A stretch of DNA of 62,737 nucleotides, from assembly GCA_016933215.1 (NCBI GenBank), contig JAFGBH010000056.1:1-62737 (forward strand), written 5' to 3'. Every line of letters starts with the position of its first letter. The first letter of the stretch is position 1. Origin of the DNA: Deltaproteobacteria bacterium (GTDB lineage Bacteria > Desulfobacterota > Syntrophia > Syntrophales > UBA2210). Of the stretch, positions 26,621-55,656 are shown piece by piece. Below the pieces are notes generated by a model that was given only the letters and a program-made list of their open reading frames with translations, did not search any database and had not been told where the DNA came from. A program made the position numbers and the translations under genes.

Positions 26621-26697
26621 CGGGGCGTAGCGCAGCCTGGTAGCGCGCATGCTTTGGGAGCATGATGTCGCAGGTTCAAATCCTGCCGCCCCGACCA
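26621..26697 (+). tRNA. tRNA-Pro (TGG)
   Basis: CGGGGCG/CGCCCCG acceptor stem, D-loop CCTGGTA, anticodon arm CATGC-TT TGG GA-GCATG, GGTTCAAATCC T-loop, encoded CCA. Confidence 0.97.
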
Positions 26698-32168: not shown

Positions 32169-32918
32169 TCACCTTTCCGACTTTGCAATCAGGCTTTCAA
32201 CCGAGGAAACCAGTTTCGAGATTTCATCCTCGGTATCGACTTTCACCTTAAGCGGAATTCCCGAATCGATGTATCTCTGAATACCGTCGGTGACTTTTAT
32301 TATAGGAGTAACGACAAAAAGGTTAATCAGGAAACTGAAGATAATTGCAAAAACAAAGGCAGATATAATAGCAATAATACCCGGCATTGTCGCCCGGTGG
32401 GCTCTGCTTTCCATATCGGATGCTGTCCGGTACATCATCTGATCATTCAGCGACATGAGATTTTGGACGGAGAGCTTTGCCATGAGAAAAGATGAGTGAA
32501 CCTCACTGAAATACCAACTAAGGTTTCCTTCCCGAGCAGTTTCAACGATTGGTTTGCTCCACAGGGCCTTATAATTGTCGTATGCCCTTGATACGGCATC
32601 GACGTACTCCTGTTCGCCCGGAATTGTCACGTTATTTCGGGCGGTTTCATAGGCTTTTCTGAATGAAGCATCAGCGGACTGTAAAATTGCCCGGCCCTCT
32701 TTCTGTTTGCCCAATAGCAAAAGCAGGATAGCGCTGTCTTCCCGTTCGAGGGCCTCGACCATCAACTTTGCAGCATTGATGCTCTTGTAGTTGTCATCGA
32801 GAATTCTCTGAACGGAGATGCCGATATTGCTCAATTCGTAAATAGACCATGCGCCAGCAACCAGCAACATGATGGCCATTATCAGGAATCCTGAAAATAT
32901 CTTTGCCCGTATTCCCAT
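32169..32918 (-). CDS. Membrane protein with extracytoplasmic four-helix sensor domain and HAMP, no output domain
   Basis: Two TM helices flanking an NYKSI..A..M.EALER four-helix region; C-terminal PI.KVT.GI...DEISKL HAMP then stop. Confidence 0.7.
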   Translation of the reverse strand: MGIRAKIFSGFLIMAIMLLVAGAWSIYELSNIGISVQRILDDNYKSINAAKLMVEALEREDSAILLLLLGKQKEGRAILQSADASFRKAYETARNNVTIPGEQEYVDAVSRAYDNYKALWSKPIVETAREGNLSWYFSEVHSSFLMAKLSVQNLMSLNDQMMYRTASDMESRAHRATMPGIIAIISAFVFAIIFSFLINLFVVTPIIKVTDGIQRYIDSGIPLKVKVDTEDEISKLVSSVESLIAKSER

Positions 32919-33318
32919 GGTCTTCTCCTTATCGGGTCTAAGAGTAAAAAAATCCAGATATGCACTTTATACTACACAAAGCCGGTTTTAAATATATTTT
33001 ATGAGCCCTGTGGGGACGGCAATGCATTTTAGAACAGCGATATAGTAACATTAATCCAAGTTTTTTTCATTCTGTTAATGATTACCAGATGAAGCGTGTA
33101 TGTTTTCTGAAGAGGTCAAGATATTGACTTCAGTCAACAATGATTACCACAAGAAAGCTGGTATCATTTGTTCAATTTCAAATCTGATTACTTCAGGAAG
33201 GAAGAAATATCTCCTTCTCATATTTTATTATTCAACAGATTTGCTACGGATTACTTTCTCATTCTTTACCAATTCTTTACCAGACCCCTCGGAAACTCAA
33301 TACTGGTAAGGATGTTGA

Positions 33319-33347
33319 CAGGTTCAAATCCTGCCGCCCCGACCAAA
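33319..33347 (+). repeat. Distal att site (duplicated tRNA-Pro 3' end)
   Basis: Identical to 26671-26699; the flanking bases differ on both sides. Confidence 0.9.
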
Positions 33348-33525
33348 AATATCAAATCATAGTAACCGCCATCGTTCGATTTACCAACGTACAATGAGAA
33401 AGAATACTCACTGGAAACGAGTGAAACCTTTCACACTATTCCACCCCCATTTTCATTGACCGGAAAAAATCTTTTCCCTATAATCTTCCATAATAAACGG
33501 AAATCTTTATAACATCTGAGAGACT

Positions 33526-36500
33526 ATGCTGGTTCGGGAAACCACAGACGAAATAAAGTATCAGGTAGAGTGGTCCACACAGGACTTTCACGGGACGGGA
33601 ACATTTACCTGGCCCGATGGCAGTTGCTATGAAGGTGATTTTCACGATGGACACCTTCATGGTTATGGGGTCTTCACCTGGGCCGACGGGAGCAATTACA
33701 CAGGTCAATGGCAAAACGATTTGCCCCACGGAAGGGGTGTGTTTACTCTGCCTGATGGAAGTCAAACTGCCGGTGAATGGAACCAGGGAAGGGCAAGCAG
33801 ACAAGATGAACTGAAAAAGGCGGAAGAATCGAGAAAACGAGCAGAGGAAGCAGCGAGAATAGTTAGCGGAGAGGAATTAAAACTTACCGCTGAAGAGGAA
33901 GCGCTGAGGAAAAAGGCAGAAGAGGCCAGGCAAAGGACTGATGAAGCTGCCGCAAGGCTGGCTGAAGAAGAGGCGAAGCTCAAGGCTGAAGAGGAAGCGC
34001 TGAGTAAAAGGGCGGAAGAGGCCAGACAAAAAACCAAGGAAGCTGCCAGGAGACTTGCTGAAGAGGAAGCCAGACTCAAAGAAGAAGAGGAAACACGAAG
34101 AAAGGCAGAAGAGGCAAGAAAAGAGGCAGAGGAAGCGGCAAAAAGATTCGCCGAGGAAGAAGCGAGGCTCAAAGCTGAAGCTGAAGTGCTGAGAAAAAAA
34201 GCAGAAGAGGCGAAACAACGGACCGAAGAGGCGGCCAGAAGACTGGCGGAAGAAGAAACCAGACTCCAGGCCGAAGAGGAGGCGAGAGTAAAGGCTGAAG
34301 AAGCAAGACAAAAAGCCGAAGAAATGGCACGGAGACTTGCCGGAGAGGAAGCCAGAATAAGATCCGAAGAAGCAGAATTGACGAAAAAGGCCGAAGAAGC
34401 AAGGCAAAAGACCGAAGAAACGGCAAGAAGACTTGCTCAAGAGGAAGCCAAACTCAGAGCTGAGGAGGAAGCGAGCAGAAGAGCTGAAGAGGAATTGAGA
34501 ATAAGGGCCGAAAAGGCCATGAGAGAGGCAGAAGAAATATCATTTCGAATGGTCGAGGAAGAGGCCAGGCTGAAAGCTGATGAGGATGAACTGAGGAGAA
34601 GGGTTGAAGAATCAAGGGCAATTGCCTTTGAGACTGCCCGACGGCTTGCCGAGGAAGAAGCGAAACTGAGAGCCGAAGAGGAAGCGAGCAAGAAAGCCGA
34701 GGAGGAACTGAAGAAACGGGAGGCAGACGCCAAACAGCGGGCAAAGGAAGCGGCCATGAGAATGGCCGAGATGGAAGCCAGAATAAGATCCGAAGAAGCA
34801 GAATTGACAAAAAAGGCCGAAGAAGCAAGACAAAAGACTGAGGAAACTACCAGGAGGCTTGCCGAGGAAGAAGCCAGGTTGAGGGCCGAAGAGGAGGAGA
34901 GCAGAAGAGCGGAAGAAGAATTGAGAATAAAGGCCGAAGAGGTCAGGAAAAGAACCAGTGAAGCAAACCAGAGACTGGCCGAAGAAGAGGCCAGGCTCAA
35001 AGCTGACGAGGAAGAGTGGAAAATAAAGGCAGATGAAGGCAAACTTGAGGCTAAAAAAGAAGAGTTGAGAGCCAAAGCCAGTGCTGCACGACAGAAGATC
35101 GAAGCAGAAGCCAGGAAACTTGCCGAAGAGGAAAACAGGTTGAGGGCTGAGGAAGAAGCACTCAAGATAAAAGCTGTTAAGGCCAAACAAAATATTGAGG
35201 AAGCGGCGAGGAGATTGGCTGAAGAAGAAGCGAATCTCCGGATTGAAGAGGAGACAAGTAAAAAGGCTGAAGAAGAATTAAGAATAAAGGCCGAGGAGGC
35301 CAGACGGCGAGCGGAGGAAACAGCGGCAAGACTGTTAGAAGAGGAAGCCCGGCTCGCGGCTGAAGAGGAAGCATTAAGGAATAAATCAGAAGAGACGAGA
35401 CAGAAGGCAGAGGAGACTGCCCGCAGAATTGCAAGAGAAGAAGCACGGCTTCGCGCTGATGAAATGGCGCTTAAAAATGCAGAAGAAGAGGTGAGGATAA
35501 AGGCTCAAGAAACACGGCTAAAGACGGAAGAAGCAACAAAGAGACTCTCCGAAGAGGAAAACAGGCTAAAGGCTGAGACGGAAGAGTTACAGAAGAAGGT
35601 AGATGAAGCGAGGAAGAAAACCTATGATGCTGCCCAAAAACTTGCCGAAAAAGAGGCAAGGTTCAGAGCCGAAGAGGAGGCAAGCAAGAAAGCGGAAGAG
35701 GAGCTGCGGGTAAAGGCCGATGAAGCCAGACAGCGGGCCGAAGAAGCGGCACAAAGACTGGCAGAGGAGATCGAAAGAGCGAAGGAAGACGAAGAAAAGA
35801 CGCAGGAGCTCCTTGAAAAGGAGCGGTTTACCAGGATATCAGAAGTTGAAGGGGCCAAACGAATTGCCGAAAGAGAGGCCATGCTGAGGGCCGAAGAGGA
35901 GGCAAGCAAGAAAGCGGAAGAGGAGCTGCGGGCAAAGGCCGAAGAAGCCAGACAGCGGGCCGAAGAGGCTGCAAGGAGAATTGCCGAAGAGGAGACAAAA
36001 CTTCGAGCTGAAGAGGAGGCAAGCAAGAAAGCGGAAGAGGACCTTCGCAGAAAGGTCGAAGAAGCCAGACGGAGGGCAGAAGATGCGGCCCGGAGACTGG
36101 ATGAGGAAGAAGCCAGACTGAAATTCGAAGAAGAGGAGTTGCGTAAAAAGGCGGAAGACGCCCGACGGAGAACTGAAGAAACGGCAGAAAAGGTGGCCGC
36201 AGAAGAAGCGAGATTAAAAGCCGAAGAGGAAAAGCTTCGAAAGAAGGCGGAAGAGTTGGCAAGAATTTCTCTTGAAGAAGATGGAGCCGCGATTACCTCG
36301 GGGCGTATATCGAAGACCTTTCCTGACGGCAGCACATATGTCGGCGAAATAGTGAGGGGAATGCCACAGGGTCAGGGAGTTATGAACTATGCCGAAGGAA
36401 GCAAGTACGTCGGAGATTGGAAAGAGGGTAAACAGGATGGACACGGTATTCTTACCCTCTCCGATGGAACGATCTACATATGCCAGTGGAAGGAGGGTAA

Positions 36501-36945
36501 AAAGAACGGGAACGGAACGGCAACCATGCCGAATGGGAAAAAGTATATTGGCGATTGGAAAAACGACCGTTATGACGGCCAGGGAACAGAAACCTTTCCG
36601 GACGGCATGAAATACAATGGTCAGTTTAGGGATGGAAAGTTTCACGGCAGAGGGATTCTGGTCCTGCCTGACGGAAGACGATATACAGGTGAGTTCAAGG
36701 ATAGTGCCTTTCATGGAAAGGGAATTCTGGTATTTTCAACGGGGGACCGGTATGAGGGCGATTTTAAGAACAACCGGTATCATGGCAAGGGAAAAATGAT
36801 TATGGCAGACGGCAGATATTACTCGGGCGAACTTGAAAATGGCCTGCCTCACGGAATGGGGACAATGGTATTTACCAGCGGAAAAGAGAATGTTGGTCAA
36901 TTCGTAGAAGGAAGGTTTGTCGGAGAGAGAGAGGTGAGCAGATGA
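33526..36945 (+). CDS. MORN-repeat protein with a very long central E/K/R/A-rich helical repeat region
   Basis: About 3 MORN repeats (YxGxWxxGxxHGxG) at the N-terminus and about 8 at the C-terminus; residues ~92-915 are AEEARQKAEEAARRLAEEEARLKAEEE-type repeats. Confidence 0.88.
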   Translation: MLVRETTDEIKYQVEWSTQDFHGTGTFTWPDGSCYEGDFHDGHLHGYGVFTWADGSNYTGQWQNDLPHGRGVFTLPDGSQTAGEWNQGRASRQDELKKAEESRKRAEEAARIVSGEELKLTAEEEALRKKAEEARQRTDEAAARLAEEEAKLKAEEEALSKRAEEARQKTKEAARRLAEEEARLKEEEETRRKAEEARKEAEEAAKRFAEEEARLKAEAEVLRKKAEEAKQRTEEAARRLAEEETRLQAEEEARVKAEEARQKAEEMARRLAGEEARIRSEEAELTKKAEEARQKTEETARRLAQEEAKLRAEEEASRRAEEELRIRAEKAMREAEEISFRMVEEEARLKADEDELRRRVEESRAIAFETARRLAEEEAKLRAEEEASKKAEEELKKREADAKQRAKEAAMRMAEMEARIRSEEAELTKKAEEARQKTEETTRRLAEEEARLRAEEEESRRAEEELRIKAEEVRKRTSEANQRLAEEEARLKADEEEWKIKADEGKLEAKKEELRAKASAARQKIEAEARKLAEEENRLRAEEEALKIKAVKAKQNIEEAARRLAEEEANLRIEEETSKKAEEELRIKAEEARRRAEETAARLLEEEARLAAEEEALRNKSEETRQKAEETARRIAREEARLRADEMALKNAEEEVRIKAQETRLKTEEATKRLSEEENRLKAETEELQKKVDEARKKTYDAAQKLAEKEARFRAEEEASKKAEEELRVKADEARQRAEEAAQRLAEEIERAKEDEEKTQELLEKERFTRISEVEGAKRIAEREAMLRAEEEASKKAEEELRAKAEEARQRAEEAARRIAEEETKLRAEEEASKKAEEDLRRKVEEARRRAEDAARRLDEEEARLKFEEEELRKKAEDARRRTEETAEKVAAEEARLKAEEEKLRKKAEELARISLEEDGAAITSGRISKTFPDGSTYVGEIVRGMPQGQGVMNYAEGSKYVGDWKEGKQDGHGILTLSDGTIYICQWKEGKKNGNGTATMPNGKKYIGDWKNDRYDGQGTETFPDGMKYNGQFRDGKFHGRGILVLPDGRRYTGEFKDSAFHGKGILVFSTGDRYEGDFKNNRYHGKGKMIMADGRYYSGELENGLPHGMGTMVFTSGKENVGQFVEGRFVGEREVSR

Positions 36946-37562
36946 TTAATAAAAAATCTCTTTCTCATATGTCGCTCCGCAAGTCCTCTGCAAAAGAAAC
37001 CATTCATTTTTATTGGGATGAAAGTTTGTTGAGCAGTAATGCTGCCTTGTCATATCCCGATGGATCGAGATATAGCGGCTATTTCCACGAGGGGGTATTC
37101 CACGGTAGCGGAATATTTATATGGTCCGATGGGAGTCGTTATGAGGGTCGATGGGAAAACGGCTATCCCCATGGACGAGGTACGATGCTTTTGTCCAACG
37201 GAAATAGATACGAAGGGGAATGGAAGAACGGGGAAGCCGAAGGGGATGGAAAAGAGACGATGTCTGACGGCAGCAGATATTCGGGTAAATGGGAAAAGGG
37301 CCAAAAAAGCGGAAAGGGTGAAATGATTTATGCCGACGGTAATAAATATAGTGGTGAATGGAGAGATGGTCTCTGTCACGGTCATGGGGTTTTGCATTTT
37401 TCATCAAATGGATCAAAATACGAAGGGGAATGGGCTGAAAATTATATGATAGGAACAGGAATACTGACATCTCAGGATGGAACAAGGTACCGGGGGGAGT
37501 GGAAAGAAAACGGATTTAACATTATCGAGGACTCCCCAAAGACGGCCTCTCGCAAAGGGTAG
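36942..37562 (+). CDS. MORN-repeat protein
   Basis: About 6 MORN repeats; ATGA overlap with the upstream gene. Confidence 0.85.
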   Translation: MINKKSLSHMSLRKSSAKETIHFYWDESLLSSNAALSYPDGSRYSGYFHEGVFHGSGIFIWSDGSRYEGRWENGYPHGRGTMLLSNGNRYEGEWKNGEAEGDGKETMSDGSRYSGKWEKGQKSGKGEMIYADGNKYSGEWRDGLCHGHGVLHFSSNGSKYEGEWAENYMIGTGILTSQDGTRYRGEWKENGFNIIEDSPKTASRKG

Positions 37563-37574: not shown

Positions 37575-37605
37575 AAAAAAGGCCTTGCTTTGTTTGACAA
37601 GGCCT
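37575..37605 (-). terminator. Rho-independent terminator of the oxidoreductase/ACT operon
   Basis: Minus strand AGGCCTTG-N10-CAAGGCCT followed by a T-run, between convergent genes. Confidence 0.65.
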
Positions 37606-37640
37606 CATGTATTGTTTTCTGATTGATAATACAATGATTA

Positions 37641-38072
37641 TTACATATGATAGAGTTCACTTCCCAGAGTTCTTATCCAGTTATCTTTCAAGACCTTCAG
37701 TGCCTTATTAACCGATTCGACGCCGAGTATAAGAACGGTGATCTCGCCCCCTCCGATATAGGGATAAATGTAATCAACATTTATTTTAGCTAACTTCAGA
37801 GGCTTCAATACTGCATTGAGTCCACCGGGGTGATGGGGTACCACACAGGCGATGACATCTTTGGTCTCTATATCATATCCGGCCGTTTTCATGACGTTCA
37901 TGGCCTTGTCAGGATCATTTGCTATAAAATGAAGTTTTCCTTCTTTTCCCTGTGCCGTAAAGTAAAAGGCGAGAATATTAACTCCATTAAAACCCAAAAG
38001 CTCGCTGACGGCTGATAACGCGCCCGGTTCGTTTTTTAGTGAGTGATTGATCTGCAAAACCGTTTTCATCAA
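37641..38072 (-). CDS. Tandem ACT-domain protein
   Basis: NEPGAL..V..LL...GVNI and HHPGGLNAVL..L....INVDYIY ACT repeats. Confidence 0.85.
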   Translation of the reverse strand: MMKTVLQINHSLKNEPGALSAVSELLGFNGVNILAFYFTAQGKEGKLHFIANDPDKAMNVMKTAGYDIETKDVIACVVPHHPGGLNAVLKPLKLAKINVDYIYPYIGGGEITVLILGVESVNKALKVLKDNWIRTLGSELYHM

Positions 38073-41458: not shown

Positions 41459-42259
41459 ATGTTAGAAATAGCAGAATTTGAAGATATTACTCAGATCAGG
41501 ATGAGCAGGGTGTTGGATGGAGTGCCGATATACTGGGTGTCCGCCTATCTTGTGGACGGTCTTTTAATCGATACGGGTTGCAGTTATACGGCGGAGGAGC
41601 TGGCTTCCTATCTTAAGGATAGAAAAATTGATATGGCCGTCAACACTCATTTCCATGAGGACCACGTCGGGTGTAATTACCTTATAAACGATATGGTTGG
41701 CGGAGCCATATACGCCCATCCGGAATCTATCCCTCTGATCGGCAAAGAGGCCTTTCTGTACCCTTATCAGGAAACGGTGTGGGGATATCCGGTACCAACG
41801 GAGGTACAATCCATTCCAGAAGTGATAAAAACGAAACATTTTACTTTTGAGGTAATAGAAACGCCCGGTCATAGCGTGGGTCACGTAGCCCTCCTGGAAA
41901 AGAATAAAGGCTGGTGTTTTTCGGGCGACATATTTTCAAGAGAAACACTGAAGTTTATCAGGCCGGAAGAGGATATGGGCGTAACGATAGACTCGATGAA
42001 AAAACTCATGGACTATGATACCGAGAGACTGATACTCTTTACATCCGTGGGTAAGATAATCGAGGACGGTCGGGGCGCTTTCAAACGATGTATCAGCTAT
42101 CTTGAAGACCTTTCAGGAAAGGCAAAGAGGCTGAGAAATGATGGACAGACGATTGAGAAAATCATAGCGGAACTTTTTGGCGGTGAGCATGACTTTGTGG
42201 AGCTGACCAACGGCCAGTACACGACAGAGAATCTCGTGCGATCGGTCCTCAGTATGTAA
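41459..42259 (+). CDS. Metallo-beta-lactamase-fold hydrolase
   Basis: LLIDTG, THFHEDHVG, TPGHSVGH, FSGD. Confidence 0.88.
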   Translation: MLEIAEFEDITQIRMSRVLDGVPIYWVSAYLVDGLLIDTGCSYTAEELASYLKDRKIDMAVNTHFHEDHVGCNYLINDMVGGAIYAHPESIPLIGKEAFLYPYQETVWGYPVPTEVQSIPEVIKTKHFTFEVIETPGHSVGHVALLEKNKGWCFSGDIFSRETLKFIRPEEDMGVTIDSMKKLMDYDTERLILFTSVGKIIEDGRGAFKRCISYLEDLSGKAKRLRNDGQTIEKIIAELFGGEHDFVELTNGQYTTENLVRSVLSM

Positions 42260-42296
42260 CAATTGATCGAGAATGCTGCTTTTTTCTTGAGTTAGT

Positions 42297-42493
42297 TTGA
42301 ACTGAGAAGCGAGCGCAATCCCCGCTTTATGAGGCGGGGTTAGCGAACGAATACAAAATAAACACTTTCCTTAATCCCGACAATCGGGATAAGTGAGGTA
42401 ACAAATTTATTTTCTGCCAGAAAACACAGAAAATAAATCCTAACTTACTTAACAGTCGGAGATTCCCCGCAACTTCTTGCGGGGGAACTTCAA
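42297..42493 (+). mobile_element. Miniature IS200/IS605-like element, family A copy 3 (complete)
   Basis: TTGAA|CTGAGAAGCGAGCGCA-hairpin...ATCCCGA-CAA-TCGGGAT...ATTTATTTTCTG/CAGAAAATAAAT...CCCCGCAA-CTTC-TTGCGGGG-GAACTTCAA. Confidence 0.82.
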
Positions 42494-42522
42494 TGCTTAT
42501 AAATCCTAAGGGGGGAAATTCC

Positions 42523-43596
42523 ATGCCAAAGAAAATAAGTATTGTACTACTTCTGCTGTTACTCATACTGGTTTTGATCTTTGTTTTTAAAGAGACGCCC
42601 GTTAATTCCGTTCCCTACACGCCGCCTGCGGCACCTGATTTGGCCGGTATCCTTGCACCCAATAATCTTTTAAAAAATTCCGAGATTATTGCCGCGGGCA
42701 GGATAAACGGTCCCGAAGATGTGGCTGTCGATGAGAATGGGCGTTTATACGGGGGGACACACGACGGCGAGATTATTCGCATCTGGCCCGATGGAAAAAT
42801 TGAGACTTTTGCGGTAACCGATGGTCGTCCTCTTGGGCTCCACTTTGATGGGGAAGGAAATCTTATTGTATGTGATGCATACAAGGGGCTTCTTGCTATC
42901 GATAGAGAGGGGAATGTTACCATTCTTGCTCAATCGGCTGATGGCGTTCCCTTTAAATTTACCGATGATCTCGATATTGCGAGTGACGGTACCATCTATT
43001 TCTCCGACGCAAGCGATACCTTTGACCACGCTCATTATCTCTTCGATCTGGTGGAATCACGGCCTCATGGCAGACTGATGAGTTACGATCCTGCCGACGG
43101 TACGGTTCAAGTCCTGTTAAGCAATCTCTATTTTGCCAACGGTGTGGCCCTTTCGGAGAATGAAGATTTTGTCCTCGTGAACGAGACATACCGATACCGG
43201 ATCATCCGTTACTGGCTCAGGGGGCCGAAGGCGGGAACACGTGATATTTTCGCCGACAATCTGCCCGGGTTTCCCGACGGGATATCGGCGAACAGAAAGG
43301 GTACGTTCTGGTTGGCGCTCTTCACCGTTCGCAACCCCATTATGGACACAATTTACCCCTATCCCTTTCTCAAGACCCTTTTAGCAAAACTTCCGGCGTC
43401 GCTGTGGCCGAAACCGAAACCTTACGGTTTTGTACTGGCCTTCGATGAGGAGGGTAATATTATTAAAAATCTCCAGGAGCCAACGGGTAAATATCTTCGG
43501 GAAATTACCTCGGTTCAGGAACATGAAGGGTACCTCTATCTGGGGAGCCTCCATAACGACAGGATCGGCAGGTATAGACTGCCCAAAGCGAAATAA
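42523..43596 (+). CDS. SMP-30/gluconolactonase/strictosidine-synthase-like beta-propeller protein with N-terminal anchor
   Basis: GPEDV, GRPLGLHF, FTDDLDI..DG.IYFSDAS, FANGVALS, LPGFPDGI; likely ATG 42523. Confidence 0.88.
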   Translation: MPKKISIVLLLLLLILVLIFVFKETPVNSVPYTPPAAPDLAGILAPNNLLKNSEIIAAGRINGPEDVAVDENGRLYGGTHDGEIIRIWPDGKIETFAVTDGRPLGLHFDGEGNLIVCDAYKGLLAIDREGNVTILAQSADGVPFKFTDDLDIASDGTIYFSDASDTFDHAHYLFDLVESRPHGRLMSYDPADGTVQVLLSNLYFANGVALSENEDFVLVNETYRYRIIRYWLRGPKAGTRDIFADNLPGFPDGISANRKGTFWLALFTVRNPIMDTIYPYPFLKTLLAKLPASLWPKPKPYGFVLAFDEEGNIIKNLQEPTGKYLREITSVQEHEGYLYLGSLHNDRIGRYRLPKAK

Positions 43597-43609
43597 AGGA
43601 GGAACGTGT

Positions 43610-44503
43610 ATGTCAAGATTATTGAATATCCTCGGATGTAGCTATCCAATCATTCAGGGCCCCATTGGGGCAATGAACAGTCCTGAAATGGTGGCGGCAA
43701 TCTCTGAGGCGGGGGCATTTGGAATGCTGGCTCTGGGATTCACCCCTAATGCGGAAGAAGCTAAAAAACTGGTGGGAGCTGTGAGGAATCTGACGGATAA
43801 GCCCTTCGGTGCAAATCTTATGACAATGAATCCCGCAAACCCGGAGATTCTGAAAATTCTTGCGGAAGCAGGAGTAAAAACCGTAACGTCCTCGGCGGGT
43901 TCTGCGAAAAATCTTTACCCGGTCATTCATGAGATGGGGATGAAGGGGTTTCATGTTGTCCTCGCCCTTTCATATGCCCTAAAGGCCGAAGATGCCGGTG
44001 CCGATGGTATCGTAATATCCGGTTCGGAATCGGGAGGACTGCGCTCTGTAAAGCAGGAATCCTCGAATATGATACTTATTCCTATGGCGGTGGATAATGT
44101 AAAAGTGCCCGTGGTTGCGGCGGGAGGCATTGCCGATTCGCGCGGTTACAGGGCAGCACTCGCTTTGGGTGCCGAAGGTGTTCAGGTAGGCACCCGCTTT
44201 CTGATATCGGAGGAGAGTCCGGCACCAAAGGCATGGAAGGAAGCGATACTCAACTGCGCTGAAGGGAATACGGCGCTTTTGCCGCTGGGAAATATGATGA
44301 TGAGGGTTATTATGAACCCCAAACTCAAGGAGCAGATGAGCAATCCGGAAACGGATCTTATGAAGGAATACAATCTCATGAATGCACCCGAGGCATGGGG
44401 TACGGGAAACTTCGACCTTTTTCCCGCTGGCGGCGGGCAGGTGAGCGCCCTCATTCGCGAAATCAAACCGGTAAAGGAAATCATAGAGGAGATGGTGTCA
44501 TAG
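43610..44503 (+). CDS. Nitronate monooxygenase / FabK-like flavin oxidoreductase
   Basis: PIIQGP, ESGG, PVVAAGGIAD, LGAEGVQVGTRF; start ATG 43610 after AAGGAGG (ORF track over-extended to 43430). Confidence 0.88.
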   Translation: MSRLLNILGCSYPIIQGPIGAMNSPEMVAAISEAGAFGMLALGFTPNAEEAKKLVGAVRNLTDKPFGANLMTMNPANPEILKILAEAGVKTVTSSAGSAKNLYPVIHEMGMKGFHVVLALSYALKAEDAGADGIVISGSESGGLRSVKQESSNMILIPMAVDNVKVPVVAAGGIADSRGYRAALALGAEGVQVGTRFLISEESPAPKAWKEAILNCAEGNTALLPLGNMMMRVIMNPKLKEQMSNPETDLMKEYNLMNAPEAWGTGNFDLFPAGGGQVSALIREIKPVKEIIEEMVS

Positions 44504-44759
44504 CGATTACCATCCTGAAACAGGCGCGGGCATGCACAATGCCGCGCCACATCCGACCGCTGCATCGACAATTCTTTCAGATAAGTGGCGATAGCGAATA
44601 TTTCTGATACACCGCGTCTCATCTTCATGTCTCTTTTTGCATCCTGTCTTATATTAAACTATCAGTATATTTATAAGATATTGTATTATATTTAGTAAAA
44701 TAATGTAAGTAATTGTAAAAAATGTAATATTATATAGTGTAACCGTGATAAATAATTTA

Positions 44760-44800
44760 TTGACTTACTATAGATAGCAATATATTATACTGATGGTATA
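44760..44800 (+). promoter_or_regulatory. Candidate promoter and palindromic operator upstream of the TetR/GRE cluster
   Basis: TTGACT-N17-TATTAT, with TATAC-TGATG-GTATA (44786-44800) overlapping the -10/+1 region. Confidence 0.45.
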
Positions 44801-44855
44801 CATAATGACTGTGATTAATAGCTGGATTGTATCGTAGCTATAATGTGGGAGAGAG

Positions 44856-45512
44856 ATGACAGGGAAACAGGGTTTTAATAAGAAAATGAAACAGCTTGTG
44901 ATTACGCAGGCTGCGAAGGAATTATTTCTTGAACATGGGTACGGTACGATTACCGTCGATCGAATTGCTGAGAGGGCAGGGGTGACCAAGAGGACACTGT
45001 ATAGCCATTACCCGTCGAAACTGGCACTCTTTGTACATGTCTTCGATGATTATTTACAGCAGTTGCATACCGAGATGGTGGCGGTTCTCGATGAAGGCCA
45101 TAGACTTGACATATTACTGAGAAGACTCACTGCCACCCTCTTTGAATTTACCAAAAGGAATGAAAAATTTATGCGCCTTTTCTGGACCCTCGGTACCGAC
45201 GAGTTTGACGGTCTGATCCCCGAAGAACTGGTTAATCGTATCAAGATGTGGAACAGGGTCCTGATCGATGAGGTTGTGAAGGTGAGTGAAGAGCCTCAGA
45301 ACAGGGGACTCATGAAAGACTATGATCCTGAACTTCTCTTTCATCTGATGTCTGCCATCAATAAGGGTATATTTCTCCATACAAATAAATCTTATCGATT
45401 CAAGATCGCCTCGCTTGATCCTGAAGAACTTTACGGCCTGATGATAGATCTTGTCGAGAAGGGTCTCTTCGGAGAATCGGATCAAAAGCGGTATGTTTCT
45501 CCGCCGGGATAA
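44856..45512 (+). CDS. TetR/AcrR family transcriptional regulator
   Basis: AAKELFLEHGY..ITVDRIAERAGVTKRTLYSHYPSKLAL. Confidence 0.92.
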   Translation: MTGKQGFNKKMKQLVITQAAKELFLEHGYGTITVDRIAERAGVTKRTLYSHYPSKLALFVHVFDDYLQQLHTEMVAVLDEGHRLDILLRRLTATLFEFTKRNEKFMRLFWTLGTDEFDGLIPEELVNRIKMWNRVLIDEVVKVSEEPQNRGLMKDYDPELLFHLMSAINKGIFLHTNKSYRFKIASLDPEELYGLMIDLVEKGLFGESDQKRYVSPPG

Positions 45513-45544
45513 ACGTTGCTGGTTACAAAGGAGGGAACAGTACG

Positions 45545-46534
45545 ATGGATTTTGACGGAATAACACTGGTTACCGGTGCTGCCGGTTTCATGGGGAGCCA
45601 TCTTGTCGAATACCTGGCAAAGCTTGGGGTTCGTGTCAGGGCAACGGCGAGACCTCGAAAAGATATATCTTTCTTCAATAATCTGGGAGTGGAATATGTT
45701 GGAGCGGATCTAACGAAGCCGGAAACCATTCCACCCCTTTTTGAGGGGAATGTTGACAGGTTGTTTCACCTCGGTGCCGTCTGCAACTTTTCCACCCCCT
45801 ATGAAGAACTCTATCCGATAAATGTAAAGGGCGTGGAACTCATCACCAAACACGCCCTTGAAGCCAAAGTGAAACGCTATATCCATGTCGGTTCCACCAG
45901 CGTTTATGCACAGTATAACGGAACACCCTTTTCTGAGGATTATCGTCAGGACCCACCTAATTCCTACGGGAAAAGCAAGCGTGACGGTGAGAAGGTAATA
46001 CGGAAGCGGATTGGCGAAGGGCTTCCCACTATCATTACAAGGCCTTGTACCGTCTACGGCCCCCGGTGTACCGACGGGGCAGGCAAGGCCTTTTCGCGAC
46101 CCACATCGATAACGGCAATTCCGGGAAGCGGAAGGCAACTCCTTTCCAATGTGAGGGCAGAAGACGTTGCCGCTGCCGTGGAACACCTCTCTCATCTTGA
46201 TGAAGCCGTCGGTGAGGCCTACAATATTTCTGATAACAGCAATCCGACACTGGAAGAGGCGTTGACTCTCGCGTCAGAGGCGTTCGGAATGAAGGCGCCG
46301 AAAATTCATCTTCCGCTGGGAATCGTCAAGATCGCTGCCCGTGTCGATGGATTCGTATCGAAGATGAGGGGAAAGGTTCCCGATCTGGAATATGATGCCG
46401 TCAATTACCTCTATGACAATTATGTGGTGGACAACACAAAACTGAAAAAAACGGGGTATAATTTCATCTATCCCGATTTTCGAGAATCAATGAAGCAGAT
46501 GGGGAAATGGTACGCAAGTCAGGTATGTCAATGA
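45545..46534 (+). CDS. Extended SDR (NAD-dependent epimerase/dehydratase, 3beta-HSD-like)
   Basis: TGAAGFMG, FHLGA, STSVY, YGKSK, RPCTVYGP. Confidence 0.88.
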   Translation: MDFDGITLVTGAAGFMGSHLVEYLAKLGVRVRATARPRKDISFFNNLGVEYVGADLTKPETIPPLFEGNVDRLFHLGAVCNFSTPYEELYPINVKGVELITKHALEAKVKRYIHVGSTSVYAQYNGTPFSEDYRQDPPNSYGKSKRDGEKVIRKRIGEGLPTIITRPCTVYGPRCTDGAGKAFSRPTSITAIPGSGRQLLSNVRAEDVAAAVEHLSHLDEAVGEAYNISDNSNPTLEEALTLASEAFGMKAPKIHLPLGIVKIAARVDGFVSKMRGKVPDLEYDAVNYLYDNYVVDNTKLKKTGYNFIYPDFRESMKQMGKWYASQVCQ

Positions 46535-46600
46535 AGCTAATCTTTTCAAAGATGCACCCTTTCGTCATTGGAACGACTGGGTAAAAGGAGGGTCGATTCT

Positions 46601-47431
46601 ATGAAGAAATCAGTGGTCATTACCGGTCTGGCCCAGGGAATGGGCCGTGAGGTGGCGAAAATTGTCGCAAGTTCCGGATGGAATGTGGCGGGCTTTGACG
46701 TGGATGGCGAGGGGATTGCGTCTCTCGGGGAAGAGCTGAGATCGATAGGGGGCGACCACCTGCTTGAGATCATGGACATAACGGACCGGCCCGGAATTCT
46801 GGCCTTTCGTGATCGGGTTTTGGAAAAATTCGGCAGTGTCAATACGGTGCTCTCCAACGTGGGGATCGGATTTTTCGGACCCTTTGAGGAGGTGGACCTC
46901 GAAAAGGCTCTTAAGTGCCTCGAGATCAATGTAATAGGCGCTTCCGCCATATTTCAGGCATTTATCCCGTCGATGCGTGAGCAACGATACGGGAAACTTA
47001 TTGCCATGTCATCCCTCGTGGGGCAGGTACCCTTTCCCTTTGAATCCATTTATTCGGCAAGCAAGTTTGCTATCGAAGGGCTTGTCCTGTCGCTGCGATA
47101 CGAAGTGGAACCCTTCGGGATCAGTGTTGCCCTTGTCGAACCGGCTCAGGTTTCCACCACATTTGCCGCAAAGATTCATGTGCTTCCACCGGAGGGGTCT
47201 CCCTACAGGGAACGGGCCAGGCGCTTTATCGAGAGGGATGATGAACTGATAAAAACCGCTCCCAATCCTCTGCAGGCGTCGCAGAAGATCGCAAAGTTAA
47301 TACAGGCCGATAAAGTAAAGCTTCATAACCAGGTGGATTTCATGAGTACTTTTTTCCTCTTTCTGAACAAATTTCTTCCCCGGTCTATGAGGGATGCAAT
47401 CTTGCTGAATCATATGGATATTAAAGTTTAA
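46601..47431 (+). CDS. Short-chain dehydrogenase/reductase
   Basis: TGLAQGMG, NVGIG, YSASKFA, VEP; start ATG 46601 after AGGAGG. Confidence 0.9.
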   Translation: MKKSVVITGLAQGMGREVAKIVASSGWNVAGFDVDGEGIASLGEELRSIGGDHLLEIMDITDRPGILAFRDRVLEKFGSVNTVLSNVGIGFFGPFEEVDLEKALKCLEINVIGASAIFQAFIPSMREQRYGKLIAMSSLVGQVPFPFESIYSASKFAIEGLVLSLRYEVEPFGISVALVEPAQVSTTFAAKIHVLPPEGSPYRERARRFIERDDELIKTAPNPLQASQKIAKLIQADKVKLHNQVDFMSTFFLFLNKFLPRSMRDAILLNHMDIKV

Positions 47432-47478
47432 TGTAGTACAATACAGATTAATTATTTTTAAAACGGGGGAAAATGGTT

Positions 47479-47688
47479 TTGAACTGAGCAGCGAGCGCAT
47501 ATCCCGTTGATTGCAGCAGGGTATGCGAGCGAATAAGAAATAACATTTTCCTTAATCCCGACAATCGGGATAAGTGAGTTAACGAATTTATTTTCTGCCA
47601 GAAAACACAGAAAATAAATCCTAACTTTCTAAACAATCGGAGATTCCACGCAACTGTCGGAGTTATAAGGGATTGCGGGAAGCTTCAA
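47479..47688 (+). mobile_element. Miniature IS200/IS605-like element, family A copy 4 (complete, longest)
   Basis: TTGAA|CTGAGCAGCGAGCGCA...GCGGGAAGCTTCAA, all three modules present. Confidence 0.82.
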
Positions 47689-47699
47689 AGGAGATCGTG

Positions 47700-50084
47700 A
47701 TGTCAACACTTGAAAGACCTGTCGAAATTGTTACTGATTCTCGAGTCACGAGACTCAGGAATCGTATTATAGATGCACCGCAGGAGGTCTGCGTGGAAAG
47801 GGCCCGGTATCTGACACGGTCGATGTCAAAAAACTGGGACCTGCATCCGCTTACCCGCATAAGCATGGCCCTGGAGGATATACTCGATAATATTACCGTT
47901 ACCATAAGGGACGACGAGTTCATCGTCGGGTGCAGAACAAGCAAACTCAAAGGGGCACCCCTTTTCCCCGAAGGAAAATCGCGCTGGATCGAAGGGGATG
48001 TAGATACCTTTGATACACGGGTCTATCAGCGGGCCCTCATAACGGAGGAGGAAAAGCGGGAGCTTCTTGAGGAGATTCTTCCCTTCTGGGAGGGGCGAAC
48101 AATAGAGGAGCGTCTTTATGAGTCCATGCCCGATGATATCGAGGCGGACATGGATAAGTATGTCTTTCTCATGGCCCTTCAGATTACCTATGGAATCGGT
48201 CATTTTACGATGGATCATCCGAGACTCCTCGCATCGGGCCTGAGAGGGATCATTGAGGATGCCGAAAAACGCTCCAATTCACTTTCCCCGCAGGAGCGTG
48301 AAGGAGAGAAGAGGCTTTTCTATGACACCGTCATGCGCTCTCTCCATGCCTCGATCCGTTTTGCCCATCGCTATGCCACACTTGCAGAATCGATGGCAGA
48401 AAATGAGATTGATACCGAGCGTGCGGAAGAATTAAGGAGAATCGCTCGTATATGCACCCGTGTTCCGGAATACCCCGCCGAGACATTTGAGGAGGCCATA
48501 CAGAGCGTCTATTTCATTCACCTTATCGCTCAGATTGAATCGGGAGGGAATTCCATTTCTCTGGGCCGTATCGACCAGATCCTCCATCCCTATTATAAGG
48601 CGGATCTGAATGCGGGGAGAATCACCCCGGATCGGGCACGGGAACTGATGGCCATGCTCTTCATCAAGGTGAATGAAATATGGAATGTTCTTGAAGAGGC
48701 TTTTATCCCCGGTGGCGAGGGGACAGAGGGAAAGACAACACAGAACGTGACCGTGGGCGGTATCGGTAAAGATGGAGAAGATGCAACCAATGAACTGAGC
48801 TATATAGGTCTTGATGCCTTTGCCGATGTCAGGACTGTACAGCCCGATTTCGGTGTTCGTCTCAGCTCAAAGGCTCCCGATAATTTCTTCCTGAGGGCTG
48901 TGGAGTATACAAAAGACGGCGTGCCGATGCATTTTTTCAATGACGATAGTATTGTTGAGGCTCTGATGAACGGGGGACATTCCATTGAAGATGCGAGAAA
49001 TTATGGCGTTGTTGGTTGTCTTGAGCCCAATGCCCAGGGAAAGACCTTCGGTTCTACCTTTGCCGTGCAGATAAACGGCATTAAATGTGTTGAGTTTGCT
49101 CTCAGCAACGGTATCGACAATACCTTCGGATATCAGTCGGGGATAGAAAGCGGAGAGGTTGAATCCTTTTCTTCCTTTGAAGATGTGTGGAATGCCTATT
49201 GCGCGCAGATGTCCTATTTTATAGGGCAGGTCGTCAGGGGAATGGATGTCCTTGATGGGATTATTGCGAATCAATTGCCGTCGCCGCTCGCCTCCGCTAT
49301 GATCGAAGGACCGCTGGAAAAGGGTTTCGATCTCACAAAGGGAGGCGCCGTCTATAATTCAACGGGCGTCCAGTATATCGGATTCGGCAATGTTGTGGAC
49401 AGTCTCTATGCCATAAAAAAAGCCGTTTTTGAAGACGGTACCGTTTTGCTCCCCGATCTCGCCGCGTGGCTTTCTGACGACTGGGATGGTGTCGAGGATA
49501 AACGGTCCTATTTCCTGAATAAAATACCAAAATACGGCAACGATATCGACGACGTGGATGAGATGGCTAAAAAGGTTCTCAATCATTTCTGTGATGAGCT
49601 GAAACAATATACGAATTACCGGGGAGGCGCCTTCTGGCCGGGCGTATTTTCCGTGGGATTTCATCTCGCCTTCGGTTCCTTTACGGCAGCAACACCCGAT
49701 GGCAGGTACTCGGGAGATGTTCTCGGGAATGGTCTCACACCGACGACCGGGAATGCCCTCACGGGTCCCACTGCGGTAATGAATTCGGTGACGAAAATCC
49801 CCCTTACACGACTTTATAACGGTGCCAATCTCAATATGAGATTCTCCGGCAAGAGGATCGGTGCAGAAAAGCTTATGGCTCTTATGAAGGCCTATTTCGA
49901 TCGCGGTGGAATCCAGGTTCAGTACAACATGATAGACTCGGAGATCTTACAGGATGCGAAAGTCAATCCGGAGAGACATAGGGATCTGGTCATAAGGATA
50001 AGCGGATATTCGACGCTCTTTACCGGTTTAACGGAAACCGCGCAGGATGAGATTATCAGCCGCACAGAATACGGACGACTGTAG
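47700..50084 (+). CDS. Glycyl radical enzyme, single-Cys non-PFL type, reaction unknown
   Basis: C-terminal LVIRISGYS glycyl-radical loop; GVVGCLEP thiyl loop; SISLGRIDQ, TAATPDGR; start ATG 47700 after AAGGAG. Confidence 0.93.
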   Translation: MSTLERPVEIVTDSRVTRLRNRIIDAPQEVCVERARYLTRSMSKNWDLHPLTRISMALEDILDNITVTIRDDEFIVGCRTSKLKGAPLFPEGKSRWIEGDVDTFDTRVYQRALITEEEKRELLEEILPFWEGRTIEERLYESMPDDIEADMDKYVFLMALQITYGIGHFTMDHPRLLASGLRGIIEDAEKRSNSLSPQEREGEKRLFYDTVMRSLHASIRFAHRYATLAESMAENEIDTERAEELRRIARICTRVPEYPAETFEEAIQSVYFIHLIAQIESGGNSISLGRIDQILHPYYKADLNAGRITPDRARELMAMLFIKVNEIWNVLEEAFIPGGEGTEGKTTQNVTVGGIGKDGEDATNELSYIGLDAFADVRTVQPDFGVRLSSKAPDNFFLRAVEYTKDGVPMHFFNDDSIVEALMNGGHSIEDARNYGVVGCLEPNAQGKTFGSTFAVQINGIKCVEFALSNGIDNTFGYQSGIESGEVESFSSFEDVWNAYCAQMSYFIGQVVRGMDVLDGIIANQLPSPLASAMIEGPLEKGFDLTKGGAVYNSTGVQYIGFGNVVDSLYAIKKAVFEDGTVLLPDLAAWLSDDWDGVEDKRSYFLNKIPKYGNDIDDVDEMAKKVLNHFCDELKQYTNYRGGAFWPGVFSVGFHLAFGSFTAATPDGRYSGDVLGNGLTPTTGNALTGPTAVMNSVTKIPLTRLYNGANLNMRFSGKRIGAEKLMALMKAYFDRGGIQVQYNMIDSEILQDAKVNPERHRDLVIRISGYSTLFTGLTETAQDEIISRTEYGRL

Positions 50085-50126
50085 CTGACCTGGAAGAGGG
50101 AGTGAAGTGACTATGGGAGGTATCGG

Positions 50127-51062: not shown

Positions 51063-51140
51063 ATCTACTTTGCGTTATGAAGGGTTTCATTTTCATAGCA
51101 ATTGAAACTGAAAACCACGCTGTTTGAGGGAGAGATTTGT

Positions 51141-51941: not shown

Positions 51942-51990
51942 TCATCTAAGGGGTTGTGAGTTGTAGGACAGGTTTTATTTCGTCATTTCC

Positions 51991-52041
51991 TTGACCGGGA
52001 GCGCACCCGCAAGCCTCGCCCTGTGGGCGTGGAGCTTCACA
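51991..52041 (+). repeat. 51-bp dispersed repeat, family B copy 2
   Basis: 46/51 identical to 41376-41426; just upstream of the MmgE/PrpD RBS. Confidence 0.8.
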
Positions 52042-52056
52042 GAAATAAGGGGGAAT

Positions 52057-53424: not shown

Positions 53425-53447
53425 AGGAAAGTATGAAAGGAGCGCGA

Positions 53448-54614: not shown

Positions 54615-54665
54615 AAACCATTATTAAAAGACTTCAAATATTTTACAAAACGAGGAGGGACAGTA

Positions 54666-55106: not shown

Positions 55107-55153
55107 GGATTTTTGTATCAATATCGATCGACGAATAAAAAAAGGAGGGACTA

Positions 55154-55591: not shown

Positions 55592-55656
55592 TTATTTATG
55601 AGCCAAACTATGGTATATGGTTGTTGATGAAATAATCGATGAAAAATGGGGTGGGG

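What the first reader, a model, noticed from the sequence alone, without database searches (positions are those of the whole stretch)
33526..36945. Dumbbell protein: MORN heads on both ends of an ~820-residue charged helical rod
Seen: residues ~92-915 are almost only E/K/R/A in ~30-aa quasi-repeats with no proline, including near-exact DNA duplications (GAAGCCAGAATAAGATCCGAAGAAGCAGAATTGAC near 34347 and 34776). There is no signal peptide or TM helix. If fully helical (0.15 nm/residue), the rod is about 120 nm long. Known: ER/K-rich segments form single alpha-helices or coiled coils, and MORN repeats bind extended peptides or membranes in eukaryotic tethers such as junctophilins. Inference: a cytoplasmic spacer, tether or cytoskeletal element whose length can evolve by repeat expansion.
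Basis: partly seen in the sequence, partly recalled or inferred. Interest (0 to 1): 0.65.

Follow-up and report, generated by a model that had tools for sequence, protein, structure and literature searches.

The report
Two-headed MORN protein with giant charged linker
An uncultured syntrophic bacterium (Syntrophales) makes a 131-kDa cytoplasmic protein with small MORN binding domains at both ends of an 824-residue charged helix, always paired with a small MORN partner gene; this undescribed family keeps its heads constant while the connector changes freely in length and chemistry, which fits a long-reach tether of unknown target.

Summary
ORF 33526-36945 (+) encodes 1139 aa: 3.5 MORN repeats, an 824-residue proline-free E/A/R/K segment built from 32- and 39-residue units, then 8.5 MORN repeats. 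No signal peptide or TM helix occurs in it or in any ortholog.

An independently assembled same-genus MAG carries a 1139-aa ortholog that aligns without gaps. dN/dS in the rod (0.12) equals that of the C-head, so the repeat is real and under selection.

New findings:
- The gene overlaps (ATGA) a 206-aa MORN-only partner, and only this pair is syntenic.
- The pair occurs in 75 of 300 sampled Syntrophales genomes.
- Heads are conserved, but the linker ranges from about 116 to 1307 aa and exists in at least four chemistries: ER/K octads, a 46-aa Ala-rich repeat, Pro/Glu-rich, and coiled-coil-like.
- The C-head superposes on eukaryotic MORN1 (TM 0.9).

The rod shows a strong single-alpha-helix charge pattern plus a sparse Leu stripe, so SAH is favoured over coiled coil but not proven. 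As an SAH it would be a semi-flexible tether (contour 124 nm, rms about 57 nm), not a rigid rod.

Function and targets are unknown. This is a new variant of a known kind, of moderate interest.

The parts
33456..33484 (+). sigma-70-like promoter candidate TTGACC-17-TATAAT, 42 bp upstream of the start codon
   Evidence: Consensus scan, 11 of 12 matches. This is a pattern match only.
33526..36945 (+). Long gene: MORN - charged helical linker - MORN, 1139 aa, 131 kDa, pI 5.2, net charge -48
   Evidence: M1 and L2 are invariant among orthologs, which supports this start codon.
33526..33798 (+). N-head, residues 1-91: leader strand plus 3.5 MORN repeats
   Evidence: Pfam MORN stretches. AF2 beta-hairpins 23-86 with pLDDT 74-89. 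43-77 % identical among orthologs.
33799..36270 (+). Linker ('rod'), residues 92-915: about 24 units of 32 or 39 aa derived from an AEEEARLK octad; no Pro; net charge -40
   Evidence: AF2 assigns helix to 718 of 824 residues at pLDDT 50-75. dN/dS is 0.12 against the same-genus ortholog.
34347..34382 (+). First copy of the 36-bp exact internal repeat
34773..34808 (+). Second copy of the 36-bp exact internal repeat, 142 codons (two 71-aa super-repeats) downstream
36271..36942 (+). C-head, residues 916-1139: 8.5 MORN repeats, MORN1(7-15)-like; repeats C6-C8 are the most conserved
   Evidence: AF2 pLDDT 82-95. The ortholog model superposes on 6t4d/6t68 at TM 0.87-0.91 and rmsd 1.6-2.0 A.
36942..37562 (+). 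Partner gene: 206-aa MORN-only protein (about 7.5 repeats). Its start overlaps the stop of the long gene (ATGA), and a GAGGTGA Shine-Dalgarno-like motif lies upstream.
   Evidence: A partner follows 20 of 21 complete long genes. Residues 10-99 align gap-free to N-head residues 1-90 at 40 % identity.
37579..37606 (.). GC-rich hairpin between the convergent MORN operon and the ACT-domain gene; likely a bidirectional terminator
   Evidence: The scan scored it on the minus strand. On the plus strand it follows an A-run and precedes a weak T-tract.

Best explanation
The locus is a self-contained two-gene operon of a Syntrophales lineage. It encodes a soluble cytoplasmic two-headed tether and a small partner.

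Shown:
- Two conserved MORN arrays, an N-head of 3.5 repeats and a MORN1-like C-head of 8.5 repeats, are joined by a long, acidic, hydrophilic connector.
- A MORN-only protein whose N-terminal half is a paralogue of the N-head overlaps the long gene's stop codon (ATGA), consistent with translational coupling.
- Heads and partner are conserved across the order. The connector varies more than ten-fold in length and has been replaced by chemically different sequences.

Inferred:
- The heads are protein-binding modules, by analogy with the MORN groove that binds helices in MORN4-Myo3a and junctophilin.
- The highly conserved last C-head repeats form a tail-to-tail dimer or partner interface, as in MORN1.
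- In this genome the connector is an ER/K-type single alpha-helix that links whatever the two heads bind. Its contour length is up to about 124 nm. Its typical end-to-end distance is about 57 nm, from a worm-like chain with the published 15-nm persistence length.
- Selection acts on reach, charge and solubility rather than on a specific linker sequence.

The targets of the heads are unknown.
For: - Architecture and lack of export signals.
- Conserved pair with no other conserved neighbour.
- Distribution of 75 of 300 Syntrophales genomes in 31 of 72 genera, patchy within families. Taxon names come from the record titles.
- Linker length 116-1307 aa, with types mapping to clades of the head tree (PE clade 100/100, A46 clade 100/98, ER/K elsewhere).
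- SAH signature: 0.43 opposite-charge i/i+3,4 pairs per residue against 0.21+-0.01 shuffled; only 13.5 % hydrophobic residues; a/d occupancy 0.34 against 0.56 for tropomyosin.
- Orthologs L032 and L036 have 4-6 % hydrophobic residues and near-perfect AEEEARRK octads, which cannot form a coiled coil.
- Designed AEEEKKK and AEEEKRK repeats are monomeric SAHs (PMC5347031).
- Between the two same-genus orthologs, charge sign is kept at 89 % of rod positions, Glu is 89 % identical, there are no indels, and dN/dS is 0.12.
- AF2 gives confident MORN heads and an 87 % helical rod.
- The C-head superposes on MORN1(7-15) at TM 0.87-0.91, 35-38 % identity.
- MORN1 dimerises through its last repeats and the MORN groove binds protein (PMC7725318).
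- Repeats C6-C8 are the most conserved.
Against:
- The rod also carries a sparse, long-range coherent hydrophobic stripe: period 3.53, R 0.405 against a shuffle maximum of 0.297, compared with 0.50 for tropomyosin. The rod is also Arg-rich. Arg-rich AEEEKRR designs oligomerise, so self-association cannot be excluded.
- One family member (P0152) has a genuinely coiled-coil-like linker.
- AF2 confidence in the rod is low (pLDDT 50-75, pTM 0.32), and its helix breaks may be packing artefacts.
- Nothing excludes contact between the two heads.
- The gene is absent from most Syntrophales genomes, so it is dispensable.
Confidence: 0.5

Rival explanations
1. The protein is a coiled-coil cytoskeletal element. 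The rod pairs with a second chain in a parallel dimer or higher bundle, giving a stiff filament with MORN domains at its ends. Possible MORN-MORN end-to-end contacts would build a scaffold comparable to bacterial coiled-coil-rich proteins or to MORN1 assemblies.
For: - The hydrophobic stripe is coherent over all 824 residues at period 3.53 (R 0.405 against 0.50 for tropomyosin).
- Hydrophobic positions are 86 % class-conserved between same-genus orthologs.
- Family member P0152 has 67-68-aa repeats with a/d occupancy 0.47 and a precomputed Pfam Tropomyosin (PF00261) annotation.
- Arg-rich ER designs oligomerise.
- MORN1 forms dimers and higher-order assemblies.
Against: - Only one core position per heptad is hydrophobic, and the i+-3/4 neighbours are mostly Glu.
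- Hydrophobic content is 13.5 % and a/d occupancy 0.34.
- Orthologs with 4-6 % hydrophobic octad linkers, or with 19-31 % proline linkers, cannot form coiled coils yet keep the same heads and partner.
- No Pfam coiled-coil family reaches its threshold on the rod.
Confidence: 0.22
2. The protein has a single composite MORN domain with a looped-out insertion. As in junctophilins, where a long joining region splits MORN 1-6 from 7-8, the N- and C-terminal repeats would stack into one 12-repeat array. The linker would then be an excursion (a helical hairpin stalk or a disordered loop), not an end-to-end spacer.
For: - Junctophilin structures (7rw4, 7rxe) are among the structural matches.
- The N-head ends and the C-head begins with half-repeats.
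- The sequence nature of the linker is unconstrained across the family, as expected for a loop.
- AF2 breaks the rod into pairs of helices of similar length, for example 685-792 and 800-907.
Against: - In the ortholog model, the low-rmsd Foldseek alignments cover only about 196 residues (the C-head). The alignments that extend to 263 columns have rmsd 19 A. pTM is 0.50. However, that ortholog's linker contained a masked N-run, so the test is weak.
- Tandem gain and loss of 32-, 39- or 46-aa units would constantly unbalance a hairpin.
- The linker is under purifying selection with no indels between same-genus orthologs, which is unusual for a mere loop.
Confidence: 0.1
3. The rod is a multivalent platform decorated by the small MORN partner. 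Each repeat unit of the helix would be a docking site for the MORN groove of the partner, as calmodulin decorates IQ motifs or as MORN4 clamps the Myo3a tail helix. This would stiffen or regulate the rod.
For: - The MORN groove binds alpha-helices in MORN4-Myo3a (cited in PMC7725318).
- The rod has about 24 regular units with a conserved Leu stripe.
- The partner gene overlaps the long gene's stop codon and is always present.
Against: - The partner is 43-82 % identical across lineages whose linkers are unrelated in sequence, including proline-rich ones. The partner's conserved target is therefore more likely a head than the linker.
- Translational coupling would favour roughly 1:1 stoichiometry, not 1:24.
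Confidence: 0.08

Closest known systems
MORN1 of Trypanosoma brucei, Toxoplasma gondii and Plasmodium falciparum (PDB 6t4r, 6t68, 6t69, 6t6q, 6t4d; PMC7725318)
   Same: The C-head of the family superposes on MORN1 repeats 7-15 at TM 0.87-0.91 and rmsd 1.6-2.0 A, with 35-38 % identity. The last repeats are the best conserved here, and they are the dimer interface in MORN1.
   Different: MORN1 is made of 15 MORN repeats only. It is eukaryotic and part of a cytoskeletal complex. It has no long linker, no second head and no partner gene.
Junctophilins (JPH1/2; PDB 7rw4, 7rxe, 9uo9)
   Same: MORN arrays are combined with a long alpha-helical spacer in a distance-setting tether, and the MORN array is interrupted by a long variable region. 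They appear among the structural matches.
   Different: Junctophilins end in a transmembrane anchor and bridge two membranes. This protein has no hydrophobic segment at all, has MORN domains at both ends, and its helix is several-fold longer. It is bacterial.
ER/K (charged) single alpha-helix domains: myosin VI and X, caldesmon, INCENP, the CAF-1 KER region, and the designed AEEEKKK and AEEEKRK polypeptides (PMC5347031, PMC4183817, PMC10335832)
   Same: Both have E/K/R/A composition and a dense i to i+4 opposite-charge pattern. The AEEE-x-x-x(-x) unit here is nearly that of the designed SAHs. Both connect two functional domains.
   Different: Known SAHs are typically 40-200 residues. This one is 824 residues, and up to about 1300 in relatives. 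It also has a sparse heptad-like Leu stripe and more Arg than Lys, so monomeric behaviour is not assured.
TolA domain II and similar E/K/A-rich bacterial envelope rods
   Same: The composition is similar. There is a weak NCBIfam TolA hit of 42.6 bits, and sources annotate several compositional look-alikes as 'TolA' or 'colicin uptake' proteins.
   Different: The score is far below the cut-off of 213. There is no N-terminal membrane anchor and no TolA C-terminal domain, and the gene is not in a tol-pal context.
Bacterial coiled-coil-rich cytoskeletal proteins (crescentin, FilP/Scy, Ccrp; named from general knowledge, not tested here)
   Same: They are long, helical, cytoplasmic, repeat-built proteins of variable length.
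   Different: Those have canonical heptad or hendecad hydrophobic cores. This rod has half-empty core positions occupied by Glu, and relatives have linkers that cannot form a coiled coil. None of those proteins has MORN end domains.

Membership tests
MORN repeat proteins (Pfam PF02493) | Tandem 23-residue YxGxW...GxG repeats that score above the Pfam gathering threshold | tested here: met
   P0001 scores 194.3 bits and P0002 119.2 bits against a cut-off of 22.5.
MORN repeat proteins (Pfam PF02493) | Elongated array of beta-hairpins superposable on solved MORN structures | tested here: met
   AF2 heads have pLDDT 82-96. Foldseek gives TM 0.87-0.91 to 6t4d, 6t68 and 6t4r.
Junctophilin family | C-terminal transmembrane anchor | tested here: not met
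   The maximum 19-residue hydropathy is 0.16 in P0001 and at most 0.91 in all orthologs.
Junctophilin family | Split MORN array (6+2) that forms one domain with a backbone helix | tested here: inconclusive
   The array is split 3.5 + 8.5. The model of an ortholog did not show the heads as one rigid body, but its linker was masked.
TolA (NCBIfam NF007065) | Score above the curated cut-off, an N-terminal membrane anchor and a C-terminal TolA domain | tested here: not met
   The score is 42.6 bits against a cut-off of 213, covering only the charged region. There is no hydrophobic segment.
ER/K charged single alpha-helix (SAH/CSAH) | High E/K/R content with regularly alternating charge clusters that give dense i/i+4 salt-bridge potential, and few hydrophobic residues | tested here: met
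   57 % of residues are charged. There are 0.43 stabilising pairs per residue against 0.21+-0.01 shuffled, and 0.02 destabilising. 13.5 % are hydrophobic.
ER/K charged single alpha-helix (SAH/CSAH) | Monomeric, highly helical in solution, with non-cooperative unfolding | not testable with these tools
   This needs CD, AUC or SEC-MALS. AF2 predicts 87 % helix at low confidence.
Canonical coiled coil | Hydrophobic residues at both the a and d positions of a persistent heptad (or related) register | tested here: not met
   a/d occupancy is 0.34 against 0.56 in tropomyosin. There is one hydrophobic position per heptad, with Glu at i+-3/4. A coherent sparse stripe does exist (R 0.405).
Known anti-phage defence proteins (PADLOC-DB) | Match to any defence-system model | tested here: not met
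   There were no hits for P0001 or P0002.

The most novel reading that the evidence does not exclude
Syntrophales would carry a dedicated intracellular distance-setting system. The two different MORN heads would grip two distinct cellular structures, for example an envelope-associated complex and a cytoplasmic body or the nucleoid. The free N-head-like partner would compete with or cap one end. An exceptionally long single alpha-helix (more than 800 residues here, about 1300 in relatives, against 40-200 in known SAHs) would act as a tunable constant-force spring. Its length would be retuned quickly by gain and loss of repeats. This would be a bacterial functional counterpart of junctophilin-type tethers, built without any membrane anchor.
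Probability: 0.2. Interest if true: 0.75.

Novelty: new variant of a known kind. Interest (0 to 1): 0.5.

Why it matters
All solved MORN structures found here are eukaryotic, and full-text searches turned up no paper on a bacterial MORN-rod-MORN protein or on MORN proteins in Syntrophales.

The family is a natural experiment on linker design. The same two heads and partner are kept while the connector is swapped between an ER/K helix, an Ala-rich repeat, a Pro/Glu-rich chain and a coiled-coil-like repeat, and its length varies ten-fold.

If the rod is a single alpha-helix, it would be several times longer than the characterised examples. That would make it a useful test object for SAH mechanics and a ready-made long spacer for protein engineering.

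Biologically, it points to an unknown long-range organising element in the cytoplasm of slow-growing syntrophs that are hard to study by genetics.

Tried and rejected
- Whole-protein homology search was swamped by compositional matches to E/K/R/A linkers in unrelated proteins (HEAT, kinases, PilB, AsmA, TolA-like). None carried MORN, so it says nothing about orthology.
- The C-head region search and the exhaustive profile search with the N-head ranked proteins by their number of MORN repeats. They yielded only two further family members (P0152, P0371) and gave no usable family census.
- The first AF2 job used the 'shortest-linker' ortholog L048. Its linker later proved to contain a 72-residue masked N-run, so it could not settle whether the heads touch.
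- A PDB sequence search with 400 rod residues gave no hit.
- PADLOC gave no hit.
- Synteny: only the pair is conserved. A GAF-domain gene and hypD/hypF follow it in one clade only.
- Phylogenetic profile against flagellin showed no association: 35 of 75 genomes with the pair have flagellin, against 98 of 225 without it.
- Misassembly was rejected on indirect grounds.
- TolA-like, secreted-adhesin and defence readings were rejected.
Full report
**Observation.** The window holds an uninterrupted ORF at 33526-36945 (+) of 1139 codons.
- Pfam finds MORN repeats at both ends: 194 bits against a cut-off of 22.5. By motif and by AF2 strands these are a leader plus 3.5 repeats (residues 1-91) and 8.5 repeats (916-1139).
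- Residues 92-915 are 28.5 % Glu, 20 % Ala, 15 % Arg, 11 % Lys and 7.5 % Leu, with no proline.
- The segment is periodic. Identity autocorrelation peaks at 32, 39, 71 and 142 residues (0.36-0.40 against a background of 0.16). TRF reports 96-, 117- and 189-nt periods.
- The units are four or five AEEEARLK-type octads. The 32- and 39-residue units largely alternate into a 71-residue super-repeat.
The copies are 142 codons apart, and their flanks are only 64-74 % identical.
- The protein is 131 kDa with pI 5.2 and net charge -48. It has no hydrophobic segment: the maximum 19-residue hydropathy is 0.16.
- The strong purine and GC skew of 34-36 kb is the codon bias of this composition on the coding strand.

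- The species representative of the same genus is a separately assembled MAG. It encodes a protein of exactly 1139 residues that aligns to this one without a single gap at 76.6 % identity. Identity is evenly spread: N-head 77 %, rod 76 %, C-head 78 %.
- At synonymous divergence near saturation (dS about 1), dN/dS is 0.12 in the rod and 0.12 in the C-head.
- Charge sign is kept at 89 % of rod positions, and Glu is 89 % identical.
- Only 36 bp are exactly repeated, so collapse by short reads is unlikely.
- Relatives from single-contig chromosome-level MAGs (for example L054, a 2.92-Mb chromosome) carry linkers of about 840 residues.
- Other MAG contigs often end, or carry N-runs, inside the rod. 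Lengths taken from such records were therefore discarded.

**Family and distribution.**
- A search with the N-head in relatives found orthologs, each followed by a MORN-only gene of about 200 aa.
- Record titles place them in Syntrophaceae, Syntrophales and Syntrophus sp. MAGs.
- In an even sample of 300 genomes of the order, 75 have a match at E <= 1e-20 to the N-head profile, which also detects the N-head-like partner gene. These fall in 31 of 72 genera, and presence is patchy even within the window's own family. The pair is therefore dispensable.
- Outside the order, the same scan returned only generic MORN proteins, many with signal peptides.
- Beyond the genus, nothing but the gene pair is syntenic. 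One clade has a GAF-domain gene and hypD/hypF downstream, which looks like local synteny.
- In the window the pair has its own promoter-like site (TTGACC-17-TATAAT, 33456-33484) and a hairpin at 37579-37606 before the convergent ACT-domain gene.
I saw only the tRNA-Pro gene and a tRNA 3'-end-like fragment near 33310-33347.

**The linker is the variable part.**
- Heads are 43-78 % identical across the family, but the linker ranges from about 116 to about 1307 residues.
- There are at least four linker chemistries:
  - near-perfect AEEEAR(R/L)K octads (L031, L032, L036);
  - the 32/39/71 pattern of this genome and its clade;
  - a 46-residue Ala/Glu/Arg repeat punctuated by GKK;
  - Pro/Glu-rich chains with 19-31 % proline.
  
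  These are documented. A Syntrophus sp. lineage instead has ten coiled-coil-like repeats of 67-68 residues.
- On a tree of the concatenated heads, the Pro/Glu and 46-mer types are each one well-supported clade nested among ER/K types. Sister sequences with almost identical heads (branch lengths 0.009 and 0.02) differ by 244 linker residues.
- Apart from length, the shared properties are hydrophilicity, high Glu in most types (14 % in the coiled-coil-like one) and a net negative charge in all but one.
- This is the pattern expected of a connector selected for physical reach, not for a sequence-specific interaction.

**Single helix or coiled coil?**
- The rod has 0.43 stabilising opposite-charge i/i+3,4 pairs per residue against 0.21+-0.01 in shuffles, and almost no like-charge pairs. 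Only 13.5 % of residues are hydrophobic.
- Its unit is close to the designed AEEEKKK and AEEEKRK polypeptides, which are monomeric single alpha-helices. The same paper gives a typical SAH length of 40-200 residues and a persistence length of about 15 nm, and notes that Arg-rich versions oligomerise (PMC5347031).
- Orthologs with 4-6 % hydrophobic residues and an 8-residue period cannot form a coiled coil.
- Against a pure SAH, the hydrophobic residues of this rod form a sparse stripe that stays in phase over all 824 residues at period 3.53. R is 0.405, against a shuffle mean of 0.195 and maximum of 0.297; tropomyosin gives 0.50. The neighbouring core-type positions are mostly Glu. The stripe is 86 % class-conserved between the same-genus orthologs.
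- AF2 puts 718 of 824 rod residues in helices of 90-139 residues, but at pLDDT 50-75 and pTM 0.32. The breaks sit at its least confident points.
- I therefore favour an SAH, roughly 60:40 over some self-association. This needs biophysics.
- If it is an SAH, my own worm-like-chain arithmetic (contour 824 x 0.15 = 124 nm, persistence length 15 nm) gives an rms end-to-end distance of about 57 nm. That is a semi-flexible tether, not a rigid 120-nm rod.

**Heads and partner.**
- The AF2 heads are confident, with pLDDT 82-96.
- The C-head of an ortholog superposes on MORN1 repeats 7-15 of three protists at TM 0.87-0.91, rmsd 1.6-2.0 A and 35-38 % identity. Junctophilins, radial-spoke MORN proteins and MORN4 follow.
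- MORN1 forms tail-to-tail dimers through its last repeats and did not bind membranes, and the MORN groove clamps a helix in MORN4-Myo3a (PMC7725318).
- In this family the most conserved repeats are C6-C8, with majority frequency 0.75-0.81 against 0.65-0.73 elsewhere. This is compatible with a conserved interface at that end.
- The 206-aa partner overlaps the long gene's stop (ATGA) behind a GAGGTGA motif, and a partner follows 20 of 21 complete long genes. The exception is a second copy in a genome that also has a full pair.
- Partner residues 10-99 align without gaps to residues 1-90 of the N-head at 40 % identity. The partner is thus a free, longer version of the N-head. It could cap, compete with or pair with a head; none of this was tested.

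**Rivals.**
- A coiled-coil filament (0.22) is kept alive by the stripe and by the coiled-coil-like relative.
- A junctophilin-like looped insertion, with the two heads forming one array (0.10), is not excluded. My only structural test used an ortholog whose linker was a masked N-run.
- Decoration of the rod by the partner (0.08) is unlikely, because the partner is conserved across unrelated linkers.
- TolA (42.6 bits against 213), secreted or anchored proteins, defence systems and an association with flagella (35 of 75 against 98 of 225) were rejected.

**Verdict.**
It needs three corrections: flexibility of the rod, the partner gene, and linker replacement in other lineages.
- The parts (MORN arrays and ER/K helices as spacers) are known. 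Earlier notes of this scan show that giant charged rods between binding domains recur in uncultured bacteria; I used those notes only as context.
- The combination appears undescribed: two MORN heads, a coupled MORN partner, restriction to one order, a helix four or more times longer than characterised SAHs, and repeated linker swaps.
- I class it as a new variant of a known kind, with interest 0.5. The function remains inferred.

Noticed in passing
proteins P0003-P0122: AEEEAR(L/R)K-type charged octad rods like this one occur as long linkers in many unrelated bacterial proteins. Examples are HEAT-repeat proteins, Ser/Thr kinases, PilB N-terminal domain proteins, AsmA-like proteins, DUF4388 proteins and GGDEF response regulators. 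This suggests a widely reused plug-in spacer module.
   Followed up: no
P0152 (Syntrophus sp. MAG): A family member keeps the same heads, but its linker is ten coiled-coil-like repeats of 67-68 residues, each with a conserved Cys (DRCRALE). The hit table lists a precomputed Pfam Tropomyosin (PF00261) annotation for it. A cluster member is annotated only as 'hypothetical protein'.
   Followed up: partly
G039 (L025:5014-7584), L058, L085: One clade replaces the helical rod with a 450-550-residue Pro/Glu-rich (19-31 % Pro), strongly acidic, non-helical linker between the same MORN heads.
   Followed up: partly
L040-L054, downstream of the pair (e.g. L054:11162-13474): In one clade a 394-aa GAF-domain protein, then HypD and a HypF-like gene, follow the MORN pair on the same strand. 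This arrangement is absent from the window's clade.
   Followed up: partly
L034, L042, L046, L050, L057 (contig ends); L035, L039, L048 (N-runs): Many MAG contigs break, or carry masked or N stretches, inside the rod-coding repeat. Apparent short forms such as the 416-aa protein of L048/G026 are therefore unreliable.
   Followed up: yes
window 33300-33347 and 26621-26697: A tRNA 3'-end-like sequence (GGTTCAAATCCTGCCGCCCCGACCA) lies about 180 bp upstream of the MORN gene, and a tRNA-Pro gene lies 6.6 kb further up. The MORN operon lies just outside it.
   Followed up: partly
window 41459-56505: A paper on anaerobic limonene metabolism by a glycine radical enzyme in a methanogenic enrichment that mentions Syntrophales (PMC12583861) turned up in a literature search. 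It may bear on the glycyl-radical-enzyme cluster in this window.
   Followed up: no
window 32169-32918 (-) and 37641-38072 (-): The flanking genes are a 4HB_MCP-type sensory-module membrane protein (inside the mobile element) and an ACT-domain-pair protein that heads a 2-oxoacid:ferredoxin oxidoreductase operon. Neither travels with the MORN pair outside the genus.
   Followed up: partly
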